Positions 1,843 through 60,444 of a stretch of DNA of 64,000 bases are shown here, one piece after another. The DNA comes from the human T2T-CHM13v2.0 reference genome, Homo sapiens: NCBI GenBank assembly GCA_009914755.4, contig CP068257.2, positions 17,120,001 to 17,184,000 of the forward strand, given 5' to 3'. The notes under the pieces were generated by a model. That model saw nothing but the letters and a program-made list of their open reading frames with translations, had not been told where the DNA came from and made no database searches. The translations under genes and the position numbers were made by a program. Positions within the stretch are counted from its first letter, which is position 1. Every line of letters starts with the position of its first letter.

Positions 1843-4222
1843 TGTCTTAGTTCATTTTGTGCTGCTATAACAGAATACCTGAGACTGGGTAATTTATAAC
1901 AGAAATGTATTGGCTGACAGCTCTGGAGCCTGGGAAGTCCTACATCAAGCGACTGGCACCTTGTGAGGTTTTCTTGTTGTGTCATCTCATGGTGGAGGGT
2001 GGAAGGGCACACAGAGGGCCAAACTTGCCTTTTTATAATGACACCAATCCTACCCATGAGGGCAGGTGGAACCCTCATGACCTCATCATCACTCAAAACT
2101 CCCACCTTGTAATACTGTTATAATAGCAATTAAATTTTAACAAGAGTTTCTGATGGGACAAATATTCAAGCCATATCATTCTGCCCTGGCTCACAAAAAC
2201 TAATGTTCTTCTCACATACAAAAATACATTCATTCCATTTCTATAGCCCCAAGTGTTCCAGTATCAACTCAAAATTTCAATGTCTGGAGTCTCATCTAAA
2301 TTATATATGGGTGAGACCCAAGGGTTGATTCATCCTGAGGCAAGTTTCTTTTTAGCTATGAGTTTGTGAAATTAATCAAGTTATGTGCTTCCAAAACACG
2401 ATGGTAGAACAGGCATAAATAGACATTTCCATTCCAAAAGGGAGAAATAAGAAAGAAAAAAGGAAAAACAGGTCCCAAGCAAGTGCAAAACCCAACAAAG
2501 TAAACAATACTAAACCCTAAATCTTGAGAATACCCTTTTTAGACTATATCCTGCTTTAGGGACACATTGAGGTGGTGCTGGGTCCCTTAAGGACCCAGGC
2601 GGTTCTGCCCCTATGGGTTTGCAGGTATTAGCTCATACAACAGCTCCCACAGGTTAGAGTCTTATATCTGCATCTCTCCCAGGCTGACGTTGCATGCTGG
2701 TAGCTCTACAGTTCCAGGGTCTTAGGGGTGGCTGTGCTCCCATGGCTGTAATAGGTGCAGCCCTAGTGGGGACTCTGTAGCAGCTCTGCCCCTGACACAA
2801 ATCTCTGCCTGAACCTCCACACTGTCCACAGCATCCTTTGAAATCTAGGTAGAGAAAGCCATGCTCTCACAACTTTTGCATTTTTTTGCACCTGGAGAAT
2901 TAGCACCCTGTGGATGCTGCCACGGTTTACAGATTGAACTTTCTAGAGCAGCAGTTATAGCCACACCTGAGTCTGCTGGAGTCATATCTTGGGCAGCTGA
3001 GGGTTGCATCAGAACACACAGAATGCTGGAAACAAACATTGAGGCAGCCCTGTGTAGCCCTCATGGTCCTGAGGACACCCTAGGCCTCTCTTTTGATATA
3101 TTTCCTTCCCTCAGGCCTTGGCACTATGGGTCTGTGATGGGAGTTGTGACACAAGTAATCTCGAGAGTGCCTTTGTGGTCATTCTCCCATTGTTCTGGTA
3201 ATCTTCTCTGGCTTTGTTCTTTTTATACTAATTTTCTTATCAAATGTTCCCTTCACCACACTCATTTTCCTGTCCTGGAAAATGCTCTTTCATTTTCCAC
3301 GAAATGGCCAGGTTGAGAATTCTCCAAATCTCTAAACTCTGTTCCCATTTTAATTATCAGTGATGATTTTAAATGATGTCTCCGTTTTCACGTTTTACTG
3401 TATGCTGTTAAAAGAAGCCACATAGCACCTTGAATGCTTTGCTGCTTAGACATTTCTTCTGCCAGATATCCTAGTTCATCACTTAAATTCTGCCTTTCAT
3501 AAAGCCTTTGGGCGTAGACATTATTCCGCAAGATTCTTTCTCCCCTTACAACAGGGTTGGCCTTTTCTACAGTTTACAATACCTAATTCATTTCTTCCAT
3601 CTAAGATGTCATCAGGGTGGCCTTTACCGTCCATATTTTTAACAACATTCTGATTATGACAATGTAGATAATCTCTAAGAAGTACCAGACTTTCCTTACA
3701 ATGGAACGTCCTCTTCTGAGCCCTCACTAGGTTTGTCCTTAATGCTCCTTTAATAGTAATTTAGGTTTTTGTAGCTTGCTCTTCCAAATTCTTCCAGCCT
3801 CAACCCACTACCCAGTTCCAAAACCACTTGCAAGTATTCAGGTATTTGTTACAGCAACACCCTTTGTCCAGTAGTAATTTTCTGTCTCAATCCATTTCAT
3901 GATGCTGTAACAGAATACTGCAGACTGGGCAATTCACAACAAACAGAAATGTATTGGCTCGCAGTTCTGGAGGTTAGGAAGTACGAGATCGAGGTTCAGG
4001 CATCTCAGAAGGGTCTTCTTTTGGTGCCATCCTATGAAAGAAGGTGGAAGGGCAAAGAGAGGGCCAACTTTGTCCTTTATAATGGCACCAGTCCCACCTT
4101 TGAGGACAGAACTCTCGTGGTTTAATCACTTTTTAAGTATCTCATTTTCTGATAATGTTACAATGGCAATGAAATTTTGACATAGGTTTTGGAAGTGACA
4201 AACATTCAAACAACAGCCTAAA
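1843..4222 (-). mobile_element. Complete ERVL-MaLR element (MLT1/MST-type) LTR-int-LTR, antisense
   Basis: Two homologous LTRs (1843-2178 and 3883-4222), both starting tgtct(c/t)a..ttcat..gctg(c)taacagaatac.. and ending ..caa(g/c)ccatatca / ..caacagccta (reverse complement of the MaLR TGATATGGTTTGG start); 1.7 kb internal region carries MaLR-int antisense motifs (acccagttccaaaaccacttgcaagtattcaggtat). Confidence 0.75.
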
Positions 4223-4369
4223 CTATAGTTAGAAGTATTTCTCTAATACACCCTGACCATACTGATATGGGAGGAGGGCAGAGAAGTGCTGGGAGGAGAA
4301 GAGTGGGTCCCTGATGAGCGCTCTACCCTCCAGCCTGTGCCCATGGACCTAGGTGAGGACAGGCACTCC

Positions 4370-4790
4370 TGCCTTCATGGCCAAATGTTGCATTTCCCAA
4401 ACCACCCTGGCCCGCCATGCCCCCATCCTGTGCCTATAAAAACCCCAAGATCCTAGCAGGCCGACTGGACATCGAGAGGAACACGTCAGCGGAAGAAGAC
4501 ACAAGTGGCTGGATGTTGAGGGGAGCATGCCGCTGTAAGAGCACACCGATAGAGCTGGCAGGCGGCAGGCCATCAACCGGTGGAATGACGCGGAGTTTGG
4601 CCAGGGAGGTTGGAGGAGAGCCCGGGCCTCTGAGCGGCAGGACTCCACGGGAAAACCATCTTCCTTCTGGCTCCCCCACCTGCTGAGAACTACTTCCACT
4701 CACACTGAGCAGCCCGACTCCAAGGGAAAACCATCTCTCTTCTGGCTCCCCCATCTCCTGAGAGCTACTTCCACTCTAAAACTTGCACAC
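4370..4790 (+). mobile_element. Solo retroviral-type LTR (unclassified family) with TATA box (cctataaaaacccc) and moderately CpG-containing R/U5-like region
   Basis: TATA-like ctataaaaacccc followed by GC-richer segment and degraded polyA-signal region (ccactctaaaacttgc); same architecture and shared motifs as the LTR at 14300-14700 (ataaaaaccc ... gctcccc..ctgagagct..ccactcaataaaact). Confidence 0.45.
4641..4776. repeat. Tandem duplication, 2 copies of about 61 bp (period about 75 bp) inside the LTR-like element
   Basis: gactccacgggaaaaccatcttccttctggctcccccacctgctgagaactacttccactc at 4641-4701 repeated as gactccaagggaaaaccatctctcttctggctcccccatctcctgagagctacttccactc at 4716-4776. Confidence 0.8.
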
Positions 4791-6738
4791 ATTCTCCAAG
4801 CCCATGTGTGATCTGATTCTTCTGGTATACCAAGGCAAGAAACCCGGGGATACAGAAATCCCTCTGTCCTTGTGATAAGGAAGGAGGGCTAACTGAGCTA
4901 ACACAAGCCACCTATGGATGGCTAAACTAAAAGAGCACCCTGTAACACACGCCCACTGGGGCTTCTGGAGCTGTAAACATTCACACCTAGACACTGCCGT
5001 GGGGTCGGAGCCCCACAGCCTGCCCATCCACATGCTCTCCTCAGAGGTTTGAGCAGGGAAGAAACGAGCCACATCCCCATCACACACCCTGCGAGGGGGA
5101 CAAGGGAACCTTTCCGGTTTCAATACCACTTCATTACCTAACACCTTCGCCTGAATCTCTGTGGTGTACAGTACATCAAGCAGAGCCAATGACTGTGACA
5201 GTGTTTTACGCGGCCTTCCTCTATCTGTTCCCAACTATGACCATTTCCTGGCATTCACCAAATAATCTAGAAGATGTCTGCACACACCATCCCTGTGCTC
5301 ACATTATTGTTTTTATTGACCCCATAGTAACTCTCCTAGAAAAGTCCCACCTCTTGCTTAAGTGTTAATTGGGTGCTATTTTCTCTTTTGGGCATTACCC
5401 TTGCCCTCTTCCCTTCATCCCTTCCAAGGAGCATGCTCCTTCCTGGACACTGCTATTCTGTATGCCCACCAATCCCTCACTCTCCCTAAGGCCTTCGCAA
5501 TTGTTGTTGCTTCTTTGATTTTCAGTCTAGGTATCATTTCTTCAGGGGAGATTTCCCAGATGACCCTTTTATTCACTCTTATGGTATGCCTCACTTCTCC
5601 TTTTTAGCACTTAGAAAAATTTCAAGTAAGTATTTTTGAGTGCATTTAAAAAGTTTTCTCAGTGTTTTCTAATCTCCCTAAGAATTGAACTATTATTTCA
5701 TTCACTGTTATAAAGTCAATGTTGAGAAATTCATGTGTGTGTAAAGATAGTATCTTTAGACAAGTTAAAATGTGCTTCCAAATTTGCTTTATATTAGTAC
5801 ATAATTTCTCACACTTCCCTTTTTCTATTCCTCTAGACTTATTTACTTGCTTCAGGATAGTTTGGGTAAGAATTCAAAAAGAAATAAGTGCTTAGTCAAT
5901 CTTGAATACATACATTAATTTTTTTTTTCTTTTGGTCTGTGTCGTCATCAACAACAAAAATAATCCTTAAAGTCAGGTTTTTTTTTTTATGGCAGAAAAG
6001 TAGTATGTTTTAGTAAAAATTATTTTAGCTCTCATCAGAAAAAGGCCTGAAAGACAGAGTCATAAAATTTTACTGTAAGCCATAACATAAAAATAGTATA
6101 GGGCTGCTTCAGGCGCATAGAAAGAATTGCAAAATCTTGCCCTTCCTGCTTAGGATAAGTGACAAGGACACAAGAGAAGAAGATAAAAGGGGAGATACAC
6201 AACCGTGTCTTACTCTAGCCCAACAATAAGTAAAAACTCAAAGGTATAGGTGTGCTAGAAACTGCTATATTTGCAAGAAGAAACATAAGGAAATCAGAAC
6301 TGGTAACCAGATTCCCTAAGAGTAGACCACACCTCTTGAAAAATATGGCCCAGAAGCAATACAACAGGGTTAGAGAACAGGTGATTTGAAACAGTAGCCT
6401 GGAGCAGCAGGTCTGACTCAACCAAATCTAGGATCTGGAAGTTCCCACATATCATGATCAGGAGACCTGGAGGTACAGACAACACTGAAGACAGTGAAAT
6501 TTTGGACAATTAGCCACATCCCCAAATGAGGACAGGCAGCTACTGAACCTCAGCAGTCTGCCTCAGCAGGCAAGAAATGGATTCAACAGACCACTCAAAG
6601 TCAAAGCCAGATAGATAGCAGGTCATGAGTCCCCATCAATTTCTTGTAGGAAACAAATTGTGTAAGTTTCTATTTCTCATTTCCCAGTATGTGAGATCAC
6701 CTTTTGGAAAATAAGTGGGGAAATATAAGACATATTAA

Positions 6739-23214: not shown

Positions 23215-23586
23215 ATATATTAATCCGTTCTCACACTGCTAATGAAGACATACCCAAGACTGGGTAATATAAAGGAAAGAGGTTTAATTGACTCACAGTT
23301 CTGCATGGCTGTGGAGGCCTCAGGAAACTTACAATCATGGTGGAAGGGAAAGTAAACATGTCCTTCGTCAGAAGGTGGCAGGAGATAGAAGTGCCAAGCA
23401 AAAGGTAGAAAGTCCTTTATAAAACCATCAGATCTCGTGAGAACTCACTATCATGAGAACAACATGGGGGGAACCACCCCCATGATTCAACTACCACCCA
23501 TGGGGACCATCCCGTGACATGTGGGGATTATGGGAACCACAATTGAAGATGATAATTTGGTTAGGGACAAAGCCAAACCATATCAC
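23215..23586 (-). mobile_element. Solo MaLR LTR (THE1/MST-type), antisense
   Basis: attaatccgttctcacactgctaatgaagacatacccaagactgggtaatataaaggaaagaggtttaattgactcacagttctgcatggctg...ggttagggacaaagccaaaccatatca = reverse complement of the THE1-family LTR. Confidence 0.8.
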
Positions 23587-25250
23587 AATGTTCTTGGCTC
23601 AGTGAAGTATAAACCAAATTTATTTATTGTGATTTAGGATGTAGGGTTATATCCTAGGAAAAGAATACATAAACAATGTTTAATGTTTTATACAGTTGTC
23701 ATTGTTGGTATGAAAAAGAAACCTATCTTTTTTAAGTATTAAGGAGAGCAAGAAACTAATAATATTTTGCAGCTAGTAGCTCTGATTATCTGTGGAGACC
23801 TCAAAAATGGCAAAATGGCCTCTTAAAAAATTGATATTTATTAAGACTATATATTTGGTTGGTACAAAAGTCATTGTGATTTTTGCTAAACATCTGTTGT
23901 CACAGATCTCAAATTGCTTACTAGAAGTTATAAACAACATGAAATTATGCTATTTATTTATTATGCCAGGCTTCTCCAGAACACGCTAAGTAAAACTGGT
24001 ATAACTTTGATAATTTTAAGCTGGAATTTCTCAAATCTACTTAAGATTGCAATGATTCCTAAAACCATCTTTTTTTTTTCAAGAACAGTGCAGCCAGCCT
24101 CTGGGTTTATTTTATCAGATACAGATTCAGAATCAGCCTTCTTAGAGGCTGAATTGCCACATGCTACTGAATTAATTAAGACACTGACTTCAGTCTAAGA
24201 GCGTTGGATTCAGCGGAAGCACAAATGGCCCTGCGGCAGCTTTTCCCTGTGGCTATCATAGTTCTCCACTACGTTTCTATCTTTTGCATCGTATCAATAT
24301 TCCCATCCCTCTCAGAAGTGGATTAAAACTATCTCTTTGCAATAATGAAATTAAATCACCTAAGAAGTTTGCATCATTTTTGCTGAGAAGTGAAGGAGAA
24401 GCATTTGTTAGCACTAATCTGAAAGTTTCTAGTGATTTATTAACATTTTCTTTCTTTGAAAGTACGACTGAAAACTGAATGATAAATGATTTCTGAAGAT
24501 TGGAAATTCAGGCACAAGGCTTTTTCAGGGCTATTCCCAATAATACAAGGTAAAAAAAAAATCAAATTTCTTAACTTTTTAAAACCAATATCACATTTTC
24601 CAACATGATGCTACCATCTATTTTTTAAGACATCTTCCTACTCCAGGGCAGAAATATAATTGGAATAAATCTGCAAACATTCCAAGACTGCTGTATCAAG
24701 TCTGCAAGAATTCACCTCAAATTAGATAAAATACATGTAATTTGTGATGCCTCTGTTGCAAAAGCAAAAAGAAATATTCCGTGTCCCTAGGGTTGTCAAT
24801 TGTTACTGAATTTTGATTTATACAAATATAACCATAGCAGAACCACTTTGTCACCTAGTGGAAAATGGCTTTCCATGGTGTGAAATTCACTTAAATTTGG
24901 ATGCTTTTGTAACATCTAGCAATTATTGACTTTTCCAATTTTTGCAAGTGTATTTCTTTAAACACAAGTGGTCTTTTCTATCTTTCCTTGCCACTTAGAA
25001 TGGGAAAGGTGTTCAGCTTCAGATTTTCTGGTTATACTTTTTAAATATTTATTTTTTAATTGAAAAAGGAAATTTTATATAGTTATGATATATACATAAA
25101 TATGTATGTTTTGATACATGTTTATATTATGGATGGTGAAATCAAGCTAGTTAGCATATTTAGTACCTGACAACTATCATTTTATTTTTGTAATGAGAAC
25201 ATTTGAGATCTACTATGAGCAATCTTTAAATACACAATACATTGCTATTA

Positions 25251-29123: not shown

Positions 29124-29232
29124 GTAGCTACTTTCTGTGTTCAATTGCCTCAACAATTGAATATTTTTGTTGAATATTAAATTACAAGATGCTTTTCTTT
29201 TGTGTTTGGAATACAATATGTCTCAAATATAT

Positions 29233-29304
29233 CTCAAATGTATCCAAAATACCATTTGAGATATAATGAGATATATAAAATGGTATTTTAGATACATTTG
29301 AGAT
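29233..29304. repeat. Inverted repeat / potential hairpin: 25-bp arms (24/25 complementary) separated by about 20-nt AT-rich loop
   Basis: Left arm ctcaaatgtatccaaaataccattt (29233-29257); right arm aaatggtattttagatacatttgag (about 29278-29302) is its reverse complement with one mismatch. Confidence 0.7.
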
Positions 29305-30032
29305 ATATTATATTCTTTTAATATTTGATGATTTGGGGGCTAGAGCTTGGAAATGAAAATTACAATCTAAAATGTCCATTTTTACTTTCCTCCAATGCCA
29401 GTGGTCTTCATTAAGGTATAGGCAACTGACTGCTGGACTTTAATCAGATCATAAGTCCTTAGTAGTATGAGAGATGCATTGGGTACTTTAAAATTGGAGA
29501 ATACTTTTATTTTTTCCTTATTTGAGGAATTATTAATTATTGAGTAATTTTATCAATATTTGAGTATTTACTAACTCAATTACTCAAATATTTATTTTTC
29601 ACACAGAATGTGTTAAATCCTTTTGAAATCTTAGCAAAAATAAGCCTCGTCTCTTGAACGAGAAATTGATTTTCTCTACTAACAAATGGAACTTGAACCT
29701 CGATATGCGTGAGTTCAATTTTAAACTCCAAATCTATGATATTTGAGTAAGTGTTACGTTTGCCAAATTGTGTTCTTCCATCCCTAAAGCTATTAGTTCC
29801 AAGTCCTGCCAATAGGAAGATCAAAGAAATACAAAGAAAAAAATCAATATATGATTGAGCTTCTTCACCCCATCTTCATTAAGAGAATACATAGTATAAT
29901 TTAATTCTGCAGCATATATTTGAAAATGGACAACCAAAGGTGCTACTAAAATTGAGCATTGTCTGATTCTAACTCTTTTGGAAAGCGGTCTTTTTAACTT
30001 GGCCAAGTCTATAATGATGGTAAACACACTAA

Positions 30033-30059
30033 ACACACACACACACACACACACACACA
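30033..30059. repeat. (CA)n microsatellite, about 13 units
   Basis: cacacacacacacacacacacacaca. Confidence 0.9.
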
Positions 30060-30665
30060 GCTATATAAAACCTAGTGTTGTTAATAAGAATAAAATGAAC
30101 ACCAAGGAATTCCTCATCCAAATTAAGAGATCCCTTATGTTGATGTCAGTCCCTTTCTCTGATAATATATTCTTCCTCCTCACCAGGGTTAAACACTATC
30201 CTTCTTTTTCCTTTAATCATTCTGATTTTTTTCAGTTTTTCACTCATGCATTTTTTTCTGAGGCATTCATTGTTAGGTATGGCATGGCTTTAAATTTTGT
30301 GTAAGTTCAATCATACTTTATGTATTCTGTTATTTTCACCTTGTTGCTCTGTATAGTTTTATATAGTTCATTTTCAGTTCTGAATACTACTCTACTGTAT
30401 CAATATAGCCAAAATGTCTTCTCATTCTAGTCTTGATGGATATTGGGATATCCTCAGTATGTTACTAAGATAAACAATGGCACTATGAATTATATTGTGC
30501 TTTCAACAGAATACACATGCATAAATTTATCTCAACCAAATACTTATAAATGGAATTGCTCCACTTTACTAAGAGTTGTTAAAGTATTATTCCAAGAACA
30601 TTTCCTAGCCTACTCTTTACATAGCTGTGTATAAAAGCTCTCCTTGCTGTGCTTACTTGTGAATA

Positions 30666-30744
30666 TTAGGTTGGTGCAAAAGTAATTGTGGTTTTTGCTG
30701 TTATCTGCAATGGCAAAAAATGCATTACTTTTGCACCAACCTGA
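30666..30744. mobile_element. MADE1 (Hsmar1-derived mariner MITE), about 79-bp palindromic element; candidate mir-548-family hairpin
   Basis: ttaggttggtgcaaaagtaattgtggtttttgctgttatctgcaatggcaaaaaatgcattacttttgcaccaacctga matches MADE1 consensus TTAGGTTGGTGCAAAAGTAATTGCGGTTTTTGCCATT...AATGGCAAAAACCGCAATTACTTTTGCACCAACCTAA; 5' arm aaaagtaattgtggtttttgc is identical or near-identical to miR-548 5p-type mature sequences as I recall them. Confidence 0.85.
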
Positions 30745-30761
30745 AATTTAATATTGTAGAT

Positions 30762-31132
30762 TGATATGGTTTGGCTGCGTTCCCAGCCAAATCTCATCTT
30801 GAATTGTAGTTCCCATAATCCGCAAATGTAGTGGGAGGGACGCAGTGTGAGGTGATTGAATCATGAGGTCCGTTACTCCCATGCTGCTGTTCTGGTGATA
30901 GTGAGTTCTCAGGAGATCTGATGGTTTTATAGCAGGCTTTTCCCCCTTTTGCTCTGCACTTCTCTTTGTTGCTGCCATGTGAAGGACATGGTTGCTTCCT
31001 TTTCCACCATGATTGTAAGTTTCCTGAGGCCTCCCCCACCATGCTGAACTGTGAGTCAATTAAACCTGTTTCCTTTGTAAATTACACAGTCTCAAGTATG
31101 TCCTTATTAGCAGCATGAGAACAAATACCTAG
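30762..31132 (+). mobile_element. Solo MaLR LTR (THE1/MST-type), sense
   Basis: tgatatggtttggctgcgttcccagccaaatctcatcttgaattgtagttcccataatccgc...ccaccatgctgaactgtgagtcaattaaacctgtttcctttgtaaattacacagtctcaagtatgtccttattagcagcatgagaacaaatacc. Confidence 0.85.
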
Positions 31133-31404
31133 ATCTTTAAAACGTGTTGAATAACATAATAAAATTGTATCTCAGAATTTTAAAATGAATCTCTCAATTT
31201 AATTGAACAGAAATTCATTTTTATCACATCATTTTATGATTTAATACATGTATGATACTTTTAAAAATTTTATTTTTTAAAGCTGAGTTTTCTTTCTTAT
31301 TAATCATAGCAATACTTTACATATTCTTGGTGTAAGTACATTGTGATGTAGATCAAAAACATCTTCTCCTAATTTAATATTTTTAAAGTATTCCATTGTA
31401 AAGC

Positions 31405-31641
31405 TTTTTTTTTTTTTTTTGGAGACAGTCTCGCTCTGCCGCCAGGCTGGAATGCAGTGGCGCGATCTTCGCTCACTGCTAACTCCGCCTCCCGGGTTCA
31501 CGCTATTCTCCTCCCTCAGCCTCCCTAGAGACGGGGTTTCACCGTGTTAGCCAGGATGGTCTCGATCTCCTGATCTCGTGTTCTGCCCGCCTCAGCCTCC
31601 CAAAGTGCTGGGATTACAGGCACGAGCCACCGTGCCCGGCC
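31405..31641 (-). mobile_element. AluY-like element, antisense, with about 55-bp internal deletion
   Basis: tttttttttttttttggagacagtctcgctctgccgccaggctggaatgcagtggcgcgatcttcgctcactgc...cctcagcctccc|tagagacggggtttcaccgtgttagccaggatggtctcgatctcctgatctcgtg..ggcacgagccaccgtgcccggcc; the segment gagtagctgggactacaggcgcccgccaccacgcccggctaattttttgtattttt expected between cctccc and tagagacgg is absent. Confidence 0.9.
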
Positions 31642-32539
31642 TGTAATGAATTTTATTTAAAAAAAAATTGTAACTTTATGCTCAAATCAATTTTACTTTA
31701 AATTTTAATGGTACTATTGAAGCATTTGCCTAGGAAACATTTGTGCAATATGTAGATTTCTGTAATTATTTATTCACTTTTCCTTTATAATTTGCATTTT
31801 CAGAGTCACATTTAAGATATTATTTCCTACACTAAAGATTTGAAAATATTTTCTTGTGTTTTTAAAAAATGTTCTTAATGTGGTATTTTGCATTAGTGTA
31901 TTGAATATCCCTTTAATTGATTTTTGACTATGGTATAAAGTATGAATCGAAATTAATTTATTTCCATATTAGCCCATTTTCCCAAGACTAAGAAAAATCT
32001 GCCCTTTCACTACAAATATAAAATATTCCTGTGTTATTGATCAAGTACACGTATGTTTCTGGACTTCTTATTGTGTTCCATTAGTCTATTTATACTTATA
32101 TACAGTATATTACTGTGTAGTATACTATATAGTATACTATTTATATAGTATAAATACCATATATACTATTTATAGCTGCATATAGCTTTACAATGAGTTT
32201 TGATAACTGACATTGAAATAACTTACAAAGACTTATTGTCTTCTTTTTCTTCTTGAAGTATGTTTCAGATATAGCTTGTCAAAGGCACTTCCACATCAAT
32301 TTTAGAATTATCTTATTAAGAAACTCTCTCACACACAGACACACACACACACTGTCAGTATTAAGTTGAAATTCAGTTGAAATCTCACTGAGTCTACATG
32401 TCAGTTTGGAGAAAACTTTCATATAGTAATACAGTACATGAAGATGTATATCCTTCTATTTAATTACATCTTCTAAAGTAGAAAAATTTTATATGTTTTT
32501 CTAATTGTTTTTAAAATATTTCGTGATAAATTAATACCT

Positions 32540-36080: not shown

Positions 36081-36429
<349 letters not shown>

Positions 36430-36899: not shown

Positions 36900-39190
36900 T
36901 GATATGGTTTGGCTCTGTGTCCTCACACAAATCTCATCCTGTAGCTCCCATAATTCCCATGTGTTGTGGGAGAGACCAGTGGGAGATGATTGAATCATGA
37001 AGAGGAGTCTTTCCCATTCTGTTCTCATGATAGTGAATGGATTTTACGAGATCTTATGGTTTTAAAAACGGTAGTTTCCCTGCACAAGCTCTCTTTTTGC
37101 CTGCCACAATCCATTCAAGATATGACTTGCTCCTCCTTCCCTTCTGCCATGATTGTGAGGCTTCCCCAGCCACGTGGAGCTGGGAGTTCCCCATTAAACC
37201 CCTTTCCTTTGTAAATTGTCCAGTCTTGAGTATGTCTTTATTGGCAGTATGAAAATGAACTAATACAGTAAATTGGTACCAGTAGAATGGGGCACTATTG
37301 AAAAGATACCTGAAAATGTGGAAGTGACTTTGGAACTGAGTAACAGGCAGAGGCTGGAACAGTTTGGAGGGCTCAGAAGAAGACAGAAAAATGTGGGAAA
37401 GTTTGGGACTTCCTAGAGACTTGTAGAATGGCTTTGCCCAAAATGCTGATAGTGATACGGACAATAAAGTCCAGGATGAGGTGGTCTCAAATGAAGATGA
37501 GAAACGTGTTGGGAACTGGAGTAAAAGTGACTCTTGTGATGTTGTAGCAAAGAGACTGGCAGCATTTTGCCCCAGCCCTAAAGATTTGTGGAACTTTGAA
37601 CTTGAGAGAGATGATTTAGGGAATCTGGGGGAAGAAATTTCTAAGCAGCAAAGCATTCAAGAGGTGACTTGGGTGCTGCCAAAGGCATTCGGTTTTATAA
37701 GGGAAGCAGAACATAAAGTTCAGAAAATTGGCAACCTGACAATGCAATAGAAAGGAAAATTCTATTTTCTGAGAAGAAATTCAAGCTGGCTGCAGAGGAG
37801 CGGAATGTTAATCTCCAAGACAATGGGAAAAATGTCTCCAGGGCATGTCAGAGGTCTTCATGGCACCCCATCCTATCAAAGGTCTGGAGGCCTAGGAGGA
37901 AAAAGTGATTTCAGAGGCCAGGCCCTGGGTCCCCATGCTGTGTTCAGCCTAGGGACTTGGTGCTCTCCATCCCAGCTGCTCCAGCTGTGGCTGAAAGGGG
38001 CCAACCTAGAGCTCAGGCCATGGCTTCAGAGGGTGGAGGCCCCAAGCCTTGGCAGCTTCCACGTGGTGTTGAGCCTGCCAGTACACAGAAGTCAAGAATT
38101 GGGTTTGGGAACCTCTGCCTAGATTTCAGATGTATGGAAATGCCTGGATACCCAGGCAGAGGTTTGCTGCAGGGATGAGGCCCTCATGGAGAATCTCTGC
38201 TATGGCAGTGAGAAAGGGAAATGTGGGATTGGAGCCCCCACACAGAGTCCCTAATGGGGCACCACCTAGTGGATCTGTGAGAAGAGCGCCACCCTCCTCC
38301 AGACCACAGGATGATAGATCCACCGACAGCTTGCATCGTGCATGTGCCTGAAAAAGCCGCGGACATTCAATGCCAGCCCATGAAAGCAGCTTGAAGGGAG
38401 GCTGTACCCTGCAAAGCCACAGGGGCAGAGCTGCCCAAGACTATGGAAACCCACCTCTTGCATCAGCATGACCTGAATGTGAGACATGGAGTCAGAGGAG
38501 ATTACTTTGGAGCTTTAAAATTTGACTGCCCCACTGGATTTCAGACTTGCGTGGGGACTGTAGCCCCTTTGTTTTGGCCAATTTCTCCCATTTGGAATGG
38601 CTGTGTTTATCCAATGCCTGTACCTCCATTGTATCTAGGAAGTAACTAACTTGCTTTTGATTTTACAGGCTCATAGGTGGAAGCGGCTTGTCTTGTCTCA
38701 GATGAGACTTTGCACTTTTGAGTTAATGCTGAAATAAGTTGAGACTTTTGGGGACTGTTGGGAAGGCACAATTGGTTTTGAAATGTGAAGATATGAGATT
38801 TGGAAAGGGTTAGGAGCAGAATGATATGGTTTGGCTCTGTGTCCCCAACCAAATCTCATCTTGTAGCACCCATACTTCCCACATGCTGTGAGAGGGACCC
38901 AGTGGGAGATGATTGAATCATGGGGGCGGGTCTTTCCTGTGCTGCTCTCATGATAGTGAATGTGTCTCATGAATCCAGTGGTTTTTACAAAGGGGTTTTC
39001 TCTGCACAGGCTTTCTGTTTTTCCTGCCGCTATCCAAGTCAGATGCAACTTGCTCCTCCTTCCCTTCTGCCATGATTGTGAGGCTTCCCCAGCCATGTGG
39101 AACTGTGAGTTCTCCATTAAACCTCTTTCCTTTTTAAATTGCCCAGTCTCAGGTATGTCTTCATCAGCAGTGTGAAAACAGACTAATACA
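36900..39190 (+). mobile_element. Complete ERVL-MaLR element (THE1/MST-type): 5' LTR 36900-37267, internal 37268-38821, 3' LTR 38822-39190
   Basis: Both LTRs start tgatatggtttggctctgtgtcc and end ..gtatgtctt(t/c)at..gcagt(a/g)tgaaaa..actaataca; LTRs share private variants (ctcatc(c/t)tgtagc deletion relative to consensus) but are about 85% identical to each other, indicating an old insertion; internal region carries THE1/MST-int motifs (aaagatacctgaaaatgtggaagtgactttggaactgagtaacaggcagaggctggaacagtttggagggctcagaagaagacag...). Confidence 0.85.
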
Positions 39191-40468
39191 GGCATCTGTG
39201 TTTTCAGAAAGATAAAGTGGCAAATAGTATTAACTACTGCAATAATTTGAACAATATTCAGTATATAATGTTTATAAAACACAGTGACATTGGCATTCTA
39301 TTTGAATATTTTGAAAGTAATTTCAGTGGAATAAGTAAGAATCTTCATGGGAATTGGATAAGAAGTGAATAAAGCTAAGAAAATGGAAATAACTACTATG
39401 AGCATCATTTTCAAAGACGTAGGCTTTGAGGAAAATGGGAGACCCATGGCAATCGACGGAAGAGAGTTTGGTGGTAAGAGAGGGCAGTTTCAGAGATATT
39501 TGAAAATTTTTGAATACTCATGGAAATAAGTTTTAGAAATGGGAAATACTGAAGACACTGGAAAGGAGAAAAATAATGAATTGAGTCGCTTTTGAGATGG
39601 CAGTAGATCAGATATAGAAACTGAGTGGAGGAAAAACCTTGTACATGATGTAAGTTCATTCATCAGGTATTGGTTTTGTTTATGTGAAGAGAAGAGCATT
39701 TCTTCCCAGTTATTTAAGCCCTTTCTGGTGAAGGCAAAGTCATCTCCCAATAGTATTGAAGAAGTTTGAAAATTTTGAATCATACGGTGAGTGTAGAATA
39801 AAGAGTTATTGAGAACTAGAGAGTACTGATTGGAAAAAATACAGTAGGGTTGATAAGAAATACTGAGGGTCTGCTTGAAGTTGGTGACAATGAATTTAAT
39901 CTAAATGACTTAGTGTTTGTCTCTAGCACCACTCAACATCTTAAGTGTGTCCACAAAGATAAAAATAATTGGATTAATCCTGTATGAGAAAAATTATTCT
40001 ATTTGGAAGGACATGCTACCTATATTTAGAAAAATAAATATGGGATTTGTCAACGATAGGGATACATAGAAGGACGGTATGTATTGGGGGTGGAAAACTT
40101 GGATCTTGAGTACAATTAACCACATAAATTGTAAGAAATGATGTTATGGTCAGTCAGTTTCTATTAATTTGTCATTTAAAAAGTGGATCTGTTGAAGACA
40201 AGAAGCTTCATGTTGAGCTAAAGGTGTAGAAGTATAAAAGAAAATAGAAAATATTGCCATTGCAAACATTAAATCAAAGCATTGAAATTTAGTGAATTAG
40301 AACCATTTCTAAGTACATTAACATTAAATTCACTGGAGGTTTTAGACCAGCTTTGAATACTGAGTAATCTGGTTAGGCAAGTACCATAGTCTTCAATACA
40401 TACATGGGGATGCCAAAAAGATGAGTAGCCAGAAACAGAGAAGTTGTCAATATTAGTACACCAAATAG

Positions 40469-40758
<290 letters not shown>

Positions 40759-41338
40759 AGTTTACTTTTAAAAAATGGAGTGTGACACGAAATGGTGAAA
40801 TTTGGAAGCAACCGTTCAGAGTGAGGCAGATAACTTTGAGGTTGATGAGATATGGAAAAATGAACAACCTTTATTTTGATACTCTGGTAGGATTAGAAAG
40901 AACTGACGAAAAATAATACATATTTTAAAGAAGTTCATATTTATAAGAGATAACTGCTAAATATTTTACTGATATTAGGGAATGTATTAGTTATGATGTG
41001 AGAATTCCACAGGAAACAAACATAGATTTAGTAATGAGAGGAAGAGTAAATGTGTTCCGGATAGATCAACACAGAGCAAAGTTGAGATGTGAGTATGAGA
41101 GATGTATGAGGTACTGAGATGTTAAAGAAGACCAAACCAAGAGGTTCCAGGCAGAGTAAGAATGGAGATCCTGAGGTTATTCAGATAAGCATACTTGGTA
41201 TTACTACTTCCCACTATTAAATAGTTGAGGTAAGTGGGTTAATAGGACTGTTAGTGCCAGCCCCTAGGTGGCATAGGAGTACCTTGGAATAGAAAGGGTT
41301 GCTGTAGTTAAAGCTTTGGTTATATGGTGGCTGAATAA

Positions 41339-52002: not shown

Positions 52003-52659
52003 TGTGGTTTAATCTCACCTCAAATTGTAATCCCCATGTGTCAAGGGAGGGACTTGTAATCTCCACATGTCAAGGGAAGGAGGGGATTGCATCATGTGGG
52101 CGGTTTCCCCCACGCTTTTCTTGTGATGGTGAGTGAGTTCTCATGAGATATGATGGTTTCATAAGTGTTTGACAGTTCCTTTTTCACATGCTTTCTCTCC
52201 TGCTGCCTTATGAAGAAGGTGCCTGCTTCCTTTTCTACCATGATTGTTAAGTTTCCTGAGGTCTCCCAGCCATGCAGAACTATCAGTCAATTAAAACTCT
52301 TTCCTTGATAAATTACCCAGTCTTGGCTATTTCTTTTTTCTTTCTTTCTTTTTTTCTAAGACAGAGTCTCTCTTTGCATTCCAGGCTGGAGTGCAGTCTG
52401 TCTCCCTGTCTCCCGAAATCAAGTGATTCTCCTGCCTCAGACTCCCAAGTACCTGGGATTACAGTTGTCCACTACCTGGCCTGGCCAATTTTTGTATTTT
52501 TATAGAGACAGAGTTTCACCATTTTGGTCAGGCTGGTCGCAAAGTCCTGACCTTAAGTGATCCACCCACCTTGGCCTCCCAGAGTGCTGGAATTACAGAC
52601 TTGAGCCTGTATTGGGCCTCGGGTATTTCTTAATAGCAGTGTGAAAATGTACTAATACA
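52003..52659 (+). mobile_element. MaLR LTR (MST/MLT1-type), sense, split by an Alu insertion (LTR parts 52003-52334 and 52608-52659); contains a 24-bp internal tandem repeat (gtaatc(c/t)cca(t/c)(g/a)tgtcaaggga(g/a)gg x2 near 52026-52080)
   Basis: gatgtggtttaatctcacctcaaattgtaatccccatgtgtcaagggagg...ccagccatgcagaactatcagtcaattaaaactctttccttgataaattacccagtcttggctatttct[Alu]...cgggtatttcttaatagcagtgtgaaaatgtactaataca. Confidence 0.7.
52335..52607 (-). mobile_element. Alu element (older, AluJ-like), antisense, inserted in a MaLR LTR
   Basis: tttttctttctttctttttttctaagacagagtctctctttgcattccaggctggagtgcagtctgtctccctgtctcccgaaatcaagtgattctcctgcctcagactcccaagtacctgggattacag...cctcccagagtgctggaattacagacttgagcc. 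Confidence 0.85.

Positions 52660-60047: not shown

Positions 60048-60444
<397 letters not shown>

What the first reader, a model, noticed from the sequence alone, without database searches (positions are those of the whole stretch)
30666..30744. MADE1 mariner MITE forming a candidate mir-548-family precursor hairpin
The 79-bp element is an almost perfect palindrome (arms aggttggtgcaaaagtaattgtggtttttgc / gcaaaaaatgcattacttttgcaccaacct). MADE1 copies are the documented evolutionary source of the primate-specific mir-548 family. The 5' arm contains aaaagtaattgtggtttttgc, which matches the seed and body of miR-548 5p-type mature sequences (for example the miR-548d-5p/ay-5p type AAAAGUAAUUGUGGUUUUUGC(C)) as I remember them. 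Depending on the genomic locus this could be an annotated or an unannotated mir-548 member. It sits 17 bp upstream of a solo THE1/MST LTR.
Basis: partly seen in the sequence, partly recalled or inferred. Interest (0 to 1): 0.5.

Follow-up and report, generated by a model that had tools for sequence, protein, structure and literature searches.

The report
Ordinary MADE1 transposon relic hairpin
This is one decayed copy of MADE1, a tiny palindromic "jumping gene" relic found thousands of times in primate genomes; it can fold like a mir-548 microRNA precursor, but nothing sets it apart as a working microRNA gene, so it is ordinary.

Summary
Window 30666-30744 is a 79-bp palindrome whose + strand RNA folds at -42.5 kcal/mol (-44.9 with flanks; z about -9 to -10). 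Its 5' arm is 21/22 identical to hsa-miR-548d-5p.

It is a MADE1 (Hsmar1-derived) MITE: 72/84 identical to the Rfam mir-548 consensus, with a TA on the 5' side. The 5' repeat is one mismatch from the SETMAR core site. The 3' repeat is damaged (1-bp deletion plus substitutions).

The microRNA-gene reading is not supported:
- It scores 69.3 bits (+) and 62.6 bits (-) against Rfam mir-548, below the curated cut-off of 90.
- Of 17 full-length MADE1 copies with the same 30-nt arm, taken from human contamination in metagenomes, 13 score higher.
- Its stem is long, its loop is only 6 nt, and it lacks the basal UG and downstream CNNC motifs.
- Its locus-specific strings appear in no paper and not in the stored part of a list of 2,469 novel human miRNA candidates.
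- No exon-like ORF or CpG island was found in the window.
- The 21-mer is multi-copy, so 5p reads could not be assigned to this locus.

Verdict: a known kind of repeat, most likely inert. Expression could not be tested.

The parts
30666..30744 (.). MADE1 element (79 bp; the consensus is 80 bp)
   Evidence: Full-length match to Rfam RF01061 mir-548 on both strands (69.3 and 62.6 bits, E 3e-14 and 2e-12). It is 72/84 identical to that model's consensus, flanks included.
30664..30665 (.). TA target-site dinucleotide on the 5' side; the expected 3' copy at 30745-30746 reads AA
   Evidence: Read directly from the sequence. The Rfam consensus carries UA on both flanks.
30666..30702 (+). 5' terminal inverted repeat, well preserved. 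The only change outside its tip is CpG to TpG at 30689; the tip (30699-30700) also differs from the consensus.
   Evidence: Alignment to the consensus. The exact 30-mer GGTTGGTGCAAAAGTAATTGTGGTTTTTGC is shared with 45 metagenome contigs.
30703..30708 (+). 6-nt terminal loop (AUCUGC), diverged from the consensus loop
   Evidence: Predicted structure.
30709..30744 (+). 3' terminal inverted repeat, damaged: CC to AT at 30720-30721, a 1-bp deletion after 30724, and A to G at 30743
   Evidence: Alignment. No match to the SETMAR core within 3 mismatches on this arm.
30678..30699 (+). miR-548d-5p-like 22-mer AAAAGUAAUUGUGGUUUUUGCU (21/22; the last base is U, not C)
30713..30734 (+). Predicted 3p partner GCAAAAAAUGCAUUACUUUUGC. 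This is the only locus-specific small RNA the + strand hairpin could give.
   Evidence: Position inferred from the pair table with a 2-nt overhang. The string is found in no paper.
30672..30696 (-). Exact 25/25 copy of hsa-miR-548aa / miR-548t-3p (AAAAACCACAAUUACUUUUGCACCA) in the 3' arm of the - strand hairpin
30673..30691 (+). SETMAR / Hsmar1 transposase core binding motif with 1 mismatch (GGTGCAAAAGTAATTGTGG)
   Evidence: The motif is taken from PMC8327481.
30762..31135 (+). Neighbouring LTR-like repeat (MaLR/THE1-MST type by recollection). It is context, not part of the element.
   Evidence: blastn finds copies at 23227-23585(-), 36900-37266(+), 38822-39180(+) and 52080-52323(+) at 69-79% identity. 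The flanks are unrelated.

Best explanation
This is a dead copy of MADE1, the 80-bp non-autonomous derivative of the mariner transposon Hsmar1.

Origin. Hsmar1 transposase binds the two terminal inverted repeats and moves such elements by cut-and-paste into a TA dinucleotide. This copy would have been placed that way while Hsmar1 was active, which began about 50 million years ago, and has drifted since (established knowledge plus inference). Both CpGs have decayed. The 3' repeat has lost a base and its transposase core site.

Why it looks like a miRNA precursor. The hairpin is an automatic consequence of the two inverted repeats, and the miR-548-like sequences are simply the repeat sequence. 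The locus has no promoter of its own. RNA would arise only by read-through transcription. The + strand transcript would fold better, because both CpG-to-TpG changes become G-U wobble pairs there and A-C mismatches on the other strand.

Most likely status. It is a neutral fossil, not a dedicated microRNA gene. At most, if a host transcript crosses it, Drosha and Dicer might release a trickle of small RNA whose 5p species is nearly indistinguishable from miR-548d-5p.
For: Identity as MADE1:
- Full-length hit to the mir-548/MADE1 covariance model on both strands, 86% identical to its consensus.
- 79 bp, built as two ~37-nt repeats around a 6-nt loop, the architecture described in PMC1784062.
- One repeat holds the SETMAR core 19-mer with 1 mismatch.
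- The same 30-nt arm occurs in 45 metagenome contigs that also carry Alu-like sequence, taken as human contamination.

Decay:
- 12 differences from the consensus. Both CpGs are now TpG, giving the wobble pairs U30689-G30722 and G30690-U30721.
- This explains the difference between -42.5 and -34.7 kcal/mol on the two strands.

Not special as a miRNA precursor:
- Below the Rfam gathering score.
- 13 of 17 full-length control MADE1 copies score higher, and only 3 of 17 reach 90 bits. 11 of 43 control sites fold at least as well.
- 40-bp uninterrupted stem with a 6-nt loop, no UG at -14, and no CNNC at +16 to +18.
- No CpG island, and no exon-like ORF of 90 aa or more, in the 64 kb.
- Locus-specific strings are absent from the literature and from the stored part of a table of 2,469 candidates.

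Background: 76 miRBase mir-548 loci (PMC8501715) against 2,679 MADE1 copies (PMC8327481).
Against: - Expression was not tested. No small-RNA, EST or ChIP data can be reached with these tools.
- The window could not be placed in the genome, so overlap with a miRBase entry is excluded only indirectly.
- The hairpin is stable, has an apical UGU, and has a lower stem of about 12-13 bp below the predicted cut. Other MADE1 copies of similar quality are annotated or listed as candidates (at least 28 hairpins with the same 20-mer in Friedlander's table).
- That table was cut when stored. By my estimate from its size, roughly two thirds of it was searched.
- Tellier & Chalmers state that about 500 Made1 copies are annotated as miRNA or miRNA-like.
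Confidence: 0.85

Rival explanations
1. An unannotated but genuinely expressed mir-548 paralogue. The element lies in a transcribed region, and Drosha and Dicer process the hairpin. On the + strand this would add to the miR-548d-5p/ay-5p pool; on the - strand, to the miR-548aa/t-3p pool.
For: - Stable hairpin in context on both strands.
- 21/22 match to miR-548d-5p and 25/25 match to miR-548aa.
- Apical UGU present.
- Many other MADE1 loci with the same 5p are listed as novel miRNA candidates with read support.
- MADE1 transcripts arise by read-through on either strand (PMC1784062).
Against: - Below the Rfam threshold, and below the median of control MADE1 copies.
- 6-nt loop, 40-bp stem, no basal UG, no CNNC.
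- No sign of a gene or promoter in the window.
- Locus-specific strings appear in no paper or searched table.
- The curators of MirGeneDB treat the whole mir-548 class as of questionable authenticity (bioRxiv 10.1101/2021.12.09.471935).
Confidence: 0.1
2. It is one of the 76 hsa-mir-548 hairpins already in miRBase.
For: - Same 5p sequence type as mir-548d-1, d-2, ay, ad and ae (the last three from memory).
- An AT-rich window full of repeats would fit an intronic or intergenic site like those in PMC8501715 Table S1.
Against: - 0 Rfam families reach their gathering score anywhere in the window.
- The 3' arm (CAAAAAAUGCAUUACUUUUG...) and the loop occur in no paper, while the 5p string occurs in 9.
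- From memory, the 3p arms of the miRBase hairpins with this 5p are all different.
- The prior is about 76 in 2,679.
Confidence: 0.02
3. It is a SETMAR (Metnase) docking site. The preserved 5' repeat binds the domesticated Hsmar1 transposase domain, which brings histone-methylase activity and modulates a nearby gene. This reading is compatible with any of the others.
For: - Core 19-mer with 1 mismatch at 30673-30691.
- SETMAR ChIP peaks coincide with ITRs and MADE1 copies (PMC6326780 and PMC8327481).
Against: - Only 11.3% of ITR motifs were bound, and affinity falls with mismatches. The best-bound class has 0 mismatches, and there are 3,104 one-mismatch sites in the genome.
- The second repeat is destroyed.
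- No gene is visible nearby.
Confidence: 0.08

Closest known systems
MADE1 (Hsmar1-derived miniature inverted-repeat transposable element; Tc1/mariner)
   Same: - Length 79 bp against 80 bp.
- Two ~37-nt terminal inverted repeats around a 6-nt centre.
- Repeat sequence matches, including the transposase/SETMAR core.
- TA on the 5' flank.
- Multi-copy in primate DNA.
   Different: Nothing categorical. It is a worn copy: about 86% identical to the consensus, a 1-bp deletion and 2 adjacent substitutions in the 3' repeat, a diverged loop, and a 3' TA that now reads AA.
hsa-mir-548d-1 / mir-548aa-1 (sense and antisense miRBase hairpins from one MADE1 in an ATAD2 intron) and mir-548d-2 / aa-2
   Same: The same preserved arm sequence. 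The + strand gives a 548d-5p-type 22-mer (21/22). The - strand gives the exact 548aa 25-mer. Hairpins form on both strands.
   Different: - The other arm differs. Here it is GCAAAAAAUGCAUUACUUUUGC; miR-548d-3p, from memory, is CAAAAACCACAGUUUCUUUUGC.
- No evidence of expression here.
- Below the Rfam family threshold.
- Host transcript unknown.
MADE1-derived 'novel miRNA candidates' of Friedlander et al. 2014 (e.g. hsa_can_13, hsa_can_163, hsa_can_172)
   Same: Unannotated MADE1 hairpins carrying aaaaguaauugugguuuuug in the 5' arm.
   Different: Those have pooled small-RNA read support. This locus was not found in the stored part of that table.

Membership tests
MADE1 MITE | About 80 bp: two ~37-bp terminal inverted repeats flanking ~6 bp (PMC1784062) | tested here: met
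   79 bp with 37-nt and 36-nt arms around a 6-nt loop.
MADE1 MITE | Repeat sequence is that of the Hsmar1 ITR, including the core GGTGCAAAAGTAATTGCGG | tested here: met
   The 5' arm has 1 mismatch. The 3' arm is recognisable but has more than 3 mismatches. Overall 72/84 identical to the Rfam consensus.
MADE1 MITE | TA target-site duplication on both flanks | tested here: inconclusive
   TA at 30664-30665. The 3' flank at 30745-30746 reads AA, one substitution away.
MADE1 MITE | Dispersed multi-copy family in primate genomes | tested here: met
   The same 30-nt arm occurs in 45 metagenome contigs; the 17 scanned with Rfam include contigs with Alu-like matches, so these are taken as human contamination. 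The window itself is Alu-rich.
mir-548 (Rfam RF01061) | Covariance-model score at or above the curated gathering score of 90 bits | tested here: not met
   69.3 bits (+) and 62.6 bits (-). 3 of 17 control MADE1 copies reach 90.
mir-548 (miRBase family) | Hairpin with a mature-type miR-548 sequence in a stem arm | tested here: met
   21/22 to miR-548d-5p on the + strand and 25/25 to miR-548aa/t-3p on the - strand.
mir-548 (miRBase family) | The locus is an entry in miRBase | not testable with these tools
   Indirect evidence only. The loop and 3' arm strings are in 0 papers, whereas the 5p string is in 9. The window could not be mapped to a chromosome.
mir-548 (miRBase family) | Cloned or sequenced ~22-nt RNAs that map to the hairpin | not testable with these tools
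   No read data are available. The 5p 21-mer is multi-copy (22 of 45 control contigs carry it), so only 3p or loop reads could be assigned to this locus.
Canonical Microprocessor substrate (bona fide miRNA in the MirGeneDB sense) | About 35-bp stem, a sizeable terminal loop, and single-stranded flanks | tested here: inconclusive
   The predicted stem has 40 pairs running into the flanks, with a 6-nt loop. The four apical pairs are G-U or A-U and could open to give a 14-nt loop. This rests on prediction only.
Canonical Microprocessor substrate (bona fide miRNA in the MirGeneDB sense) | Primary-sequence motifs: basal UG at -14, apical UGU, CNNC at +16 to +18 (Auyeung 2013, from memory) | tested here: not met
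   UA at -14/-13. UGU is present at +22 to +24. The only CNNC is at +3. One of the three motifs is present.
SETMAR-bound ITR | Core 19-mer with 0-3 mismatches | tested here: met
   1 mismatch at 30673-30691.
SETMAR-bound ITR | ChIP occupancy in cells | not testable with these tools
   Only 11.3% of motifs are occupied in the published data (PMC8327481).

The most novel reading that the evidence does not exclude
This MADE1 copy is transcribed within an unrecognised host transcript and is a real, unannotated source of miR-548d-5p/548aa-type small RNAs. Reads now credited to the annotated mir-548d, ay and aa loci would then come partly from here. It might also serve as a SETMAR-bound site.
Probability: 0.1. 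Interest if true: 0.15.

Novelty: already known. Interest (0 to 1): 0.06.

Why it matters
It matters little. MADE1 as the source of mir-548 has been documented since 2007. There are about 2,700 such hairpins in the human genome, and curators of stringent miRNA catalogues doubt that even the annotated mir-548 entries are bona fide miRNAs.

The useful lesson is practical. A MADE1 hairpin with a perfect mature-miRNA match is the default state of the repeat, not evidence of a gene. Because the 5p sequence is multi-copy, small-RNA reads of the miR-548d-5p type cannot be assigned to any single locus.

Tried and rejected
- Placing the window in the genome or finding a host gene. ORFs of 90 aa or more are all translations of L1, Alu or LTR sequence, and there is no CpG island. 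The comparison with the host-gene list of the 76 mir-548 loci could therefore not be made.
- Literature search for the locus-specific loop and 3' arm strings: 0 papers.
- Supplementary tables. The Friedlander 2014 candidate table is held only in part and has no match. PMC4330264 has no held supplements. The PMC4482582 supplements hold no sequences.
- Scan of bacterial and archaeal genome contigs for the locus-specific 41-mer, hoping for contaminating human contigs: 0 hits. None of the 45 metagenome contigs is this locus.
- Inverted segmental duplication. A half MADE1 at 23852-23887 also lies near a related LTR in the opposite orientation. I rejected the idea because nothing but the two repeats themselves aligns between the regions.
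- The other sub-threshold miRNA hits over the element (MIR2275, MIR6019, mir-2985, MIR397 and others) are generic long-hairpin matches, mostly to plant families, and were dismissed.

Full report
**What is in the sequence**

Window 30666-30744 reads TTAGGTTGGTGCAAAAGTAATTGTGGTTTTTGCTGTTATCTGCAATGGCAAAAAATGCATTACTTTTGCACCAACCTGA.

As RNA, the + strand 79-mer folds into a single hairpin of -42.5 kcal/mol (z -9.05; 0 of 200 shuffles as good). The - strand folds at -34.7 kcal/mol (z -8.0). With short flanks (30660-30750) the + strand reaches -44.9 kcal/mol. The hairpin persists when 281 nt are folded, on either strand.

The palindrome is less perfect than described. The outer ~20 bp pair perfectly, but the two 37-nt arms match at only 30 positions, with six mismatches and one internal single-base gap.

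**What it is**

The element matches the whole Rfam mir-548 model (RF01061, positions 1-84) on both strands, at 69.3 bits (E 3e-14) and 62.6 bits. It is 72/84 identical to that model's consensus.

Piriyapongsa and Jordan (PMC1784062) describe Made1 as 80 bp: two 37-bp terminal inverted repeats around 6 bp, derived from Hsmar1, and the source of hsa-mir-548. This element has that architecture.

Further points that fit MADE1:
- A TA lies on its 5' flank. The 3' flank reads AA, one substitution from the expected TA.
- The 5' repeat carries the SETMAR/Hsmar1 transposase core GGTGCAAAAGTAATTGCGG with one mismatch. This is the only match within 3 mismatches in the window (motif from PMC8327481).
- The 3' repeat has two adjacent substitutions and a 1-bp deletion, and no longer matches the core.

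Both CpGs of the consensus have become TpG on the + strand. In + strand RNA these form two adjacent wobble pairs, U30689-G30722 and G30690-U30721. On the - strand they are A-C mismatches. This accounts for the roughly 8-10 kcal/mol difference between the strands.

Divergence of about 10-14% fits a family that entered primates about 50 million years ago (abstract of PMC9062482). That age estimate is an inference.

**The microRNA matches**

- The 22-mer at 30678-30699 is 21/22 identical to hsa-miR-548d-5p, whose sequence I took from four papers.

This is expected. In miRBase, mir-548aa-1 and aa-2 lie on the strand opposite mir-548d-1 and d-2, within the same host genes (ATAD2 and PITPNC1; PMC8501715 Table S1). 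From memory, each pair is the sense and antisense reading of one MADE1. These matches therefore reflect the preserved repeat arm, not anything particular to this locus.

**Is it more miRNA-like than any other MADE1?**

No.

- At Rfam's curated thresholds the whole 64-kb window has no hit. The element is 21 bits short of the mir-548 gathering score.
- As a control I fetched every metagenome contig holding the same exact 30-nt arm, allowing CG or TG at the CpG. This gave 45 contigs. Alu-like matches in the contigs scanned show they are human contamination.
- Of the 43 usable sites, about 17 are full-length palindromes. The rest are single repeats. 11 of the 43 fold at least as well as this element.
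- The best-strand Rfam scores of the 17 full-length controls are 97.3, 94, 92.6, 89.2, 88, 85.9, 83, 80.7, 80.6, 78.2, 77.8, 76.3, 70.8, 64.4, 56.1, 50.4 and 47.3. At 69.3, the element ranks 14th of 18.
- A few controls are duplicates of one locus. That does not change the picture.

Structurally, the predicted + strand stem has 40 pairs running into the flanks and a terminal loop of only 6 nt. The predicted Drosha cut would lie 12-13 bp above the end of the element. Of the processing motifs I recall from Auyeung et al. 2013, the apical UGU is present, the basal UG is absent, and CNNC at +16 to +18 is absent. The hairpin is a possible substrate but an unremarkable one.

**Is it annotated or expressed?**

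I could not map the window to a chromosome.
- ORFs of 90 aa or more are all repeat translations.
- There is no CpG island.
- The window is about 35% G+C and full of Alu, L1 and LTR sequence.

No host gene could therefore be compared with the list of the 76 hsa-mir-548 loci.

Indirect tests were negative:
- The loop and 3' arm strings occur in no paper, while the shared 5p string occurs in nine.
- They do not occur in the stored part of Friedlander et al.'s table of 2,469 novel human candidates. By my estimate from its size, roughly two thirds of that table is held.
- That stored part does hold at least 28 other hairpins with the same 20-mer.

Priors are low. There are 76 miRBase loci against 2,679 MADE1 copies. 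Tellier and Chalmers say about 500 Made1 copies are annotated as miRNA or miRNA-like.

Patil, Halushka and Fromm treat the mir-548 class as repeat-derived entries of questionable authenticity. None is among the MirGeneDB miRNAs they searched.

The 5p 21-mer occurs in 22 of my 45 control contigs. Reads of that sequence cannot be assigned to one locus. Only the 3p species GCAAAAAAUGCAUUACUUUUGC, or a 5p ending in ...GCU, would be diagnostic.

**Surroundings**

- Seventeen bp downstream, at 30762-31135 (+), lies a 374-bp repeat. It has copies at 23227-23585(-), 36900-37266(+), 38822-39180(+) and 52080-52323(+) at 69-79% identity. From memory of the consensus it is a MaLR LTR of the THE1/MST type. 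No partner lies nearby, so 'solo' is reasonable.
- Its sense orientation points away from the MADE1, so it would not drive transcription through the hairpin. That is an inference.
- A half MADE1 at 23852-23887 also sits near a related LTR in the opposite orientation. Nothing else aligns between the two regions, so this is coincidence and not a duplication.

**Verdict**

The identification as MADE1 and the miR-548 sequence match are right. The suggestion that this is a noteworthy mir-548 candidate is not supported.

The best explanation is a neutral, decayed MADE1 copy whose hairpin and miRNA-like sequence are inherited properties of the repeat (confidence 0.85). Two minor possibilities remain open and untested: low-level processing if the locus is transcribed (about 0.1), and SETMAR binding (about 0.08). 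The thing is already known in kind, and interest is low.

Noticed in passing
window 29226-29309: A second strong hairpin 1.4 kb upstream. It is a single-copy, AT-rich 84-bp palindrome whose two halves are 86% complementary. RNA of 29200-29335(-) folds at -45.6 kcal/mol, z -10.2. It gives only a sub-threshold hit to a plant family (MIR477, 32 bits). There is no other copy in the window or in the control contigs, and no paper holds its arm sequences.
   Followed up: partly
The same arm matches annotated mature miRNAs on both strands.
   Followed up: yes
window 23852-23887: Half MADE1/Hsmar1 terminal repeat (89% identical to the 5' arm) with no second arm. It lies 266 bp from an inverted copy of the same LTR family that neighbours the main element. 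The flanks are unrelated, so this is not a duplication.
   Followed up: yes
window 36900-39180: Two same-orientation LTR copies (36900-37266 and 38822-39180) start 1.9 kb apart. This looks like a full-length MaLR (THE1/MST-like) element with its internal region.
   Followed up: no
window 30024-30059: (AC)n microsatellite, about 17.5 copies.
   Followed up: no
window 31100-31900 and 40300-41000: The 500-bp windows with the most CpGs outside 4200-4900 (CpG observed/expected 0.65-0.89). The second stretch, and the far end of the first, overlap Alu-like matches (sub-threshold Metazoa_SRP and mir-1268 hits), which would suggest comparatively young Alu copies. The CpG-rich start of the first stretch (about 31100-31500) has no Alu-like match and was not inspected.
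   Followed up: no
window 4200-4900: The most G+C-rich stretch of the window (0.56-0.58, CpG observed/expected about 0.38). It has overlapping ORFs on the - strand whose translations contain an internal repeat (GEPEERWFS / GEPEGRWFS), which hints at a tandem repeat or an LTR. It is not a CpG island.
   Followed up: no
window 60260-60311, 36234-36285, 40589-40640 and others: Sub-threshold hits to the mir-1268 and mir-3135 models, all inside Alu elements. This is the same situation as mir-548 and MADE1: repeat-derived miRNA families that match every copy of the repeat.
   Followed up: no
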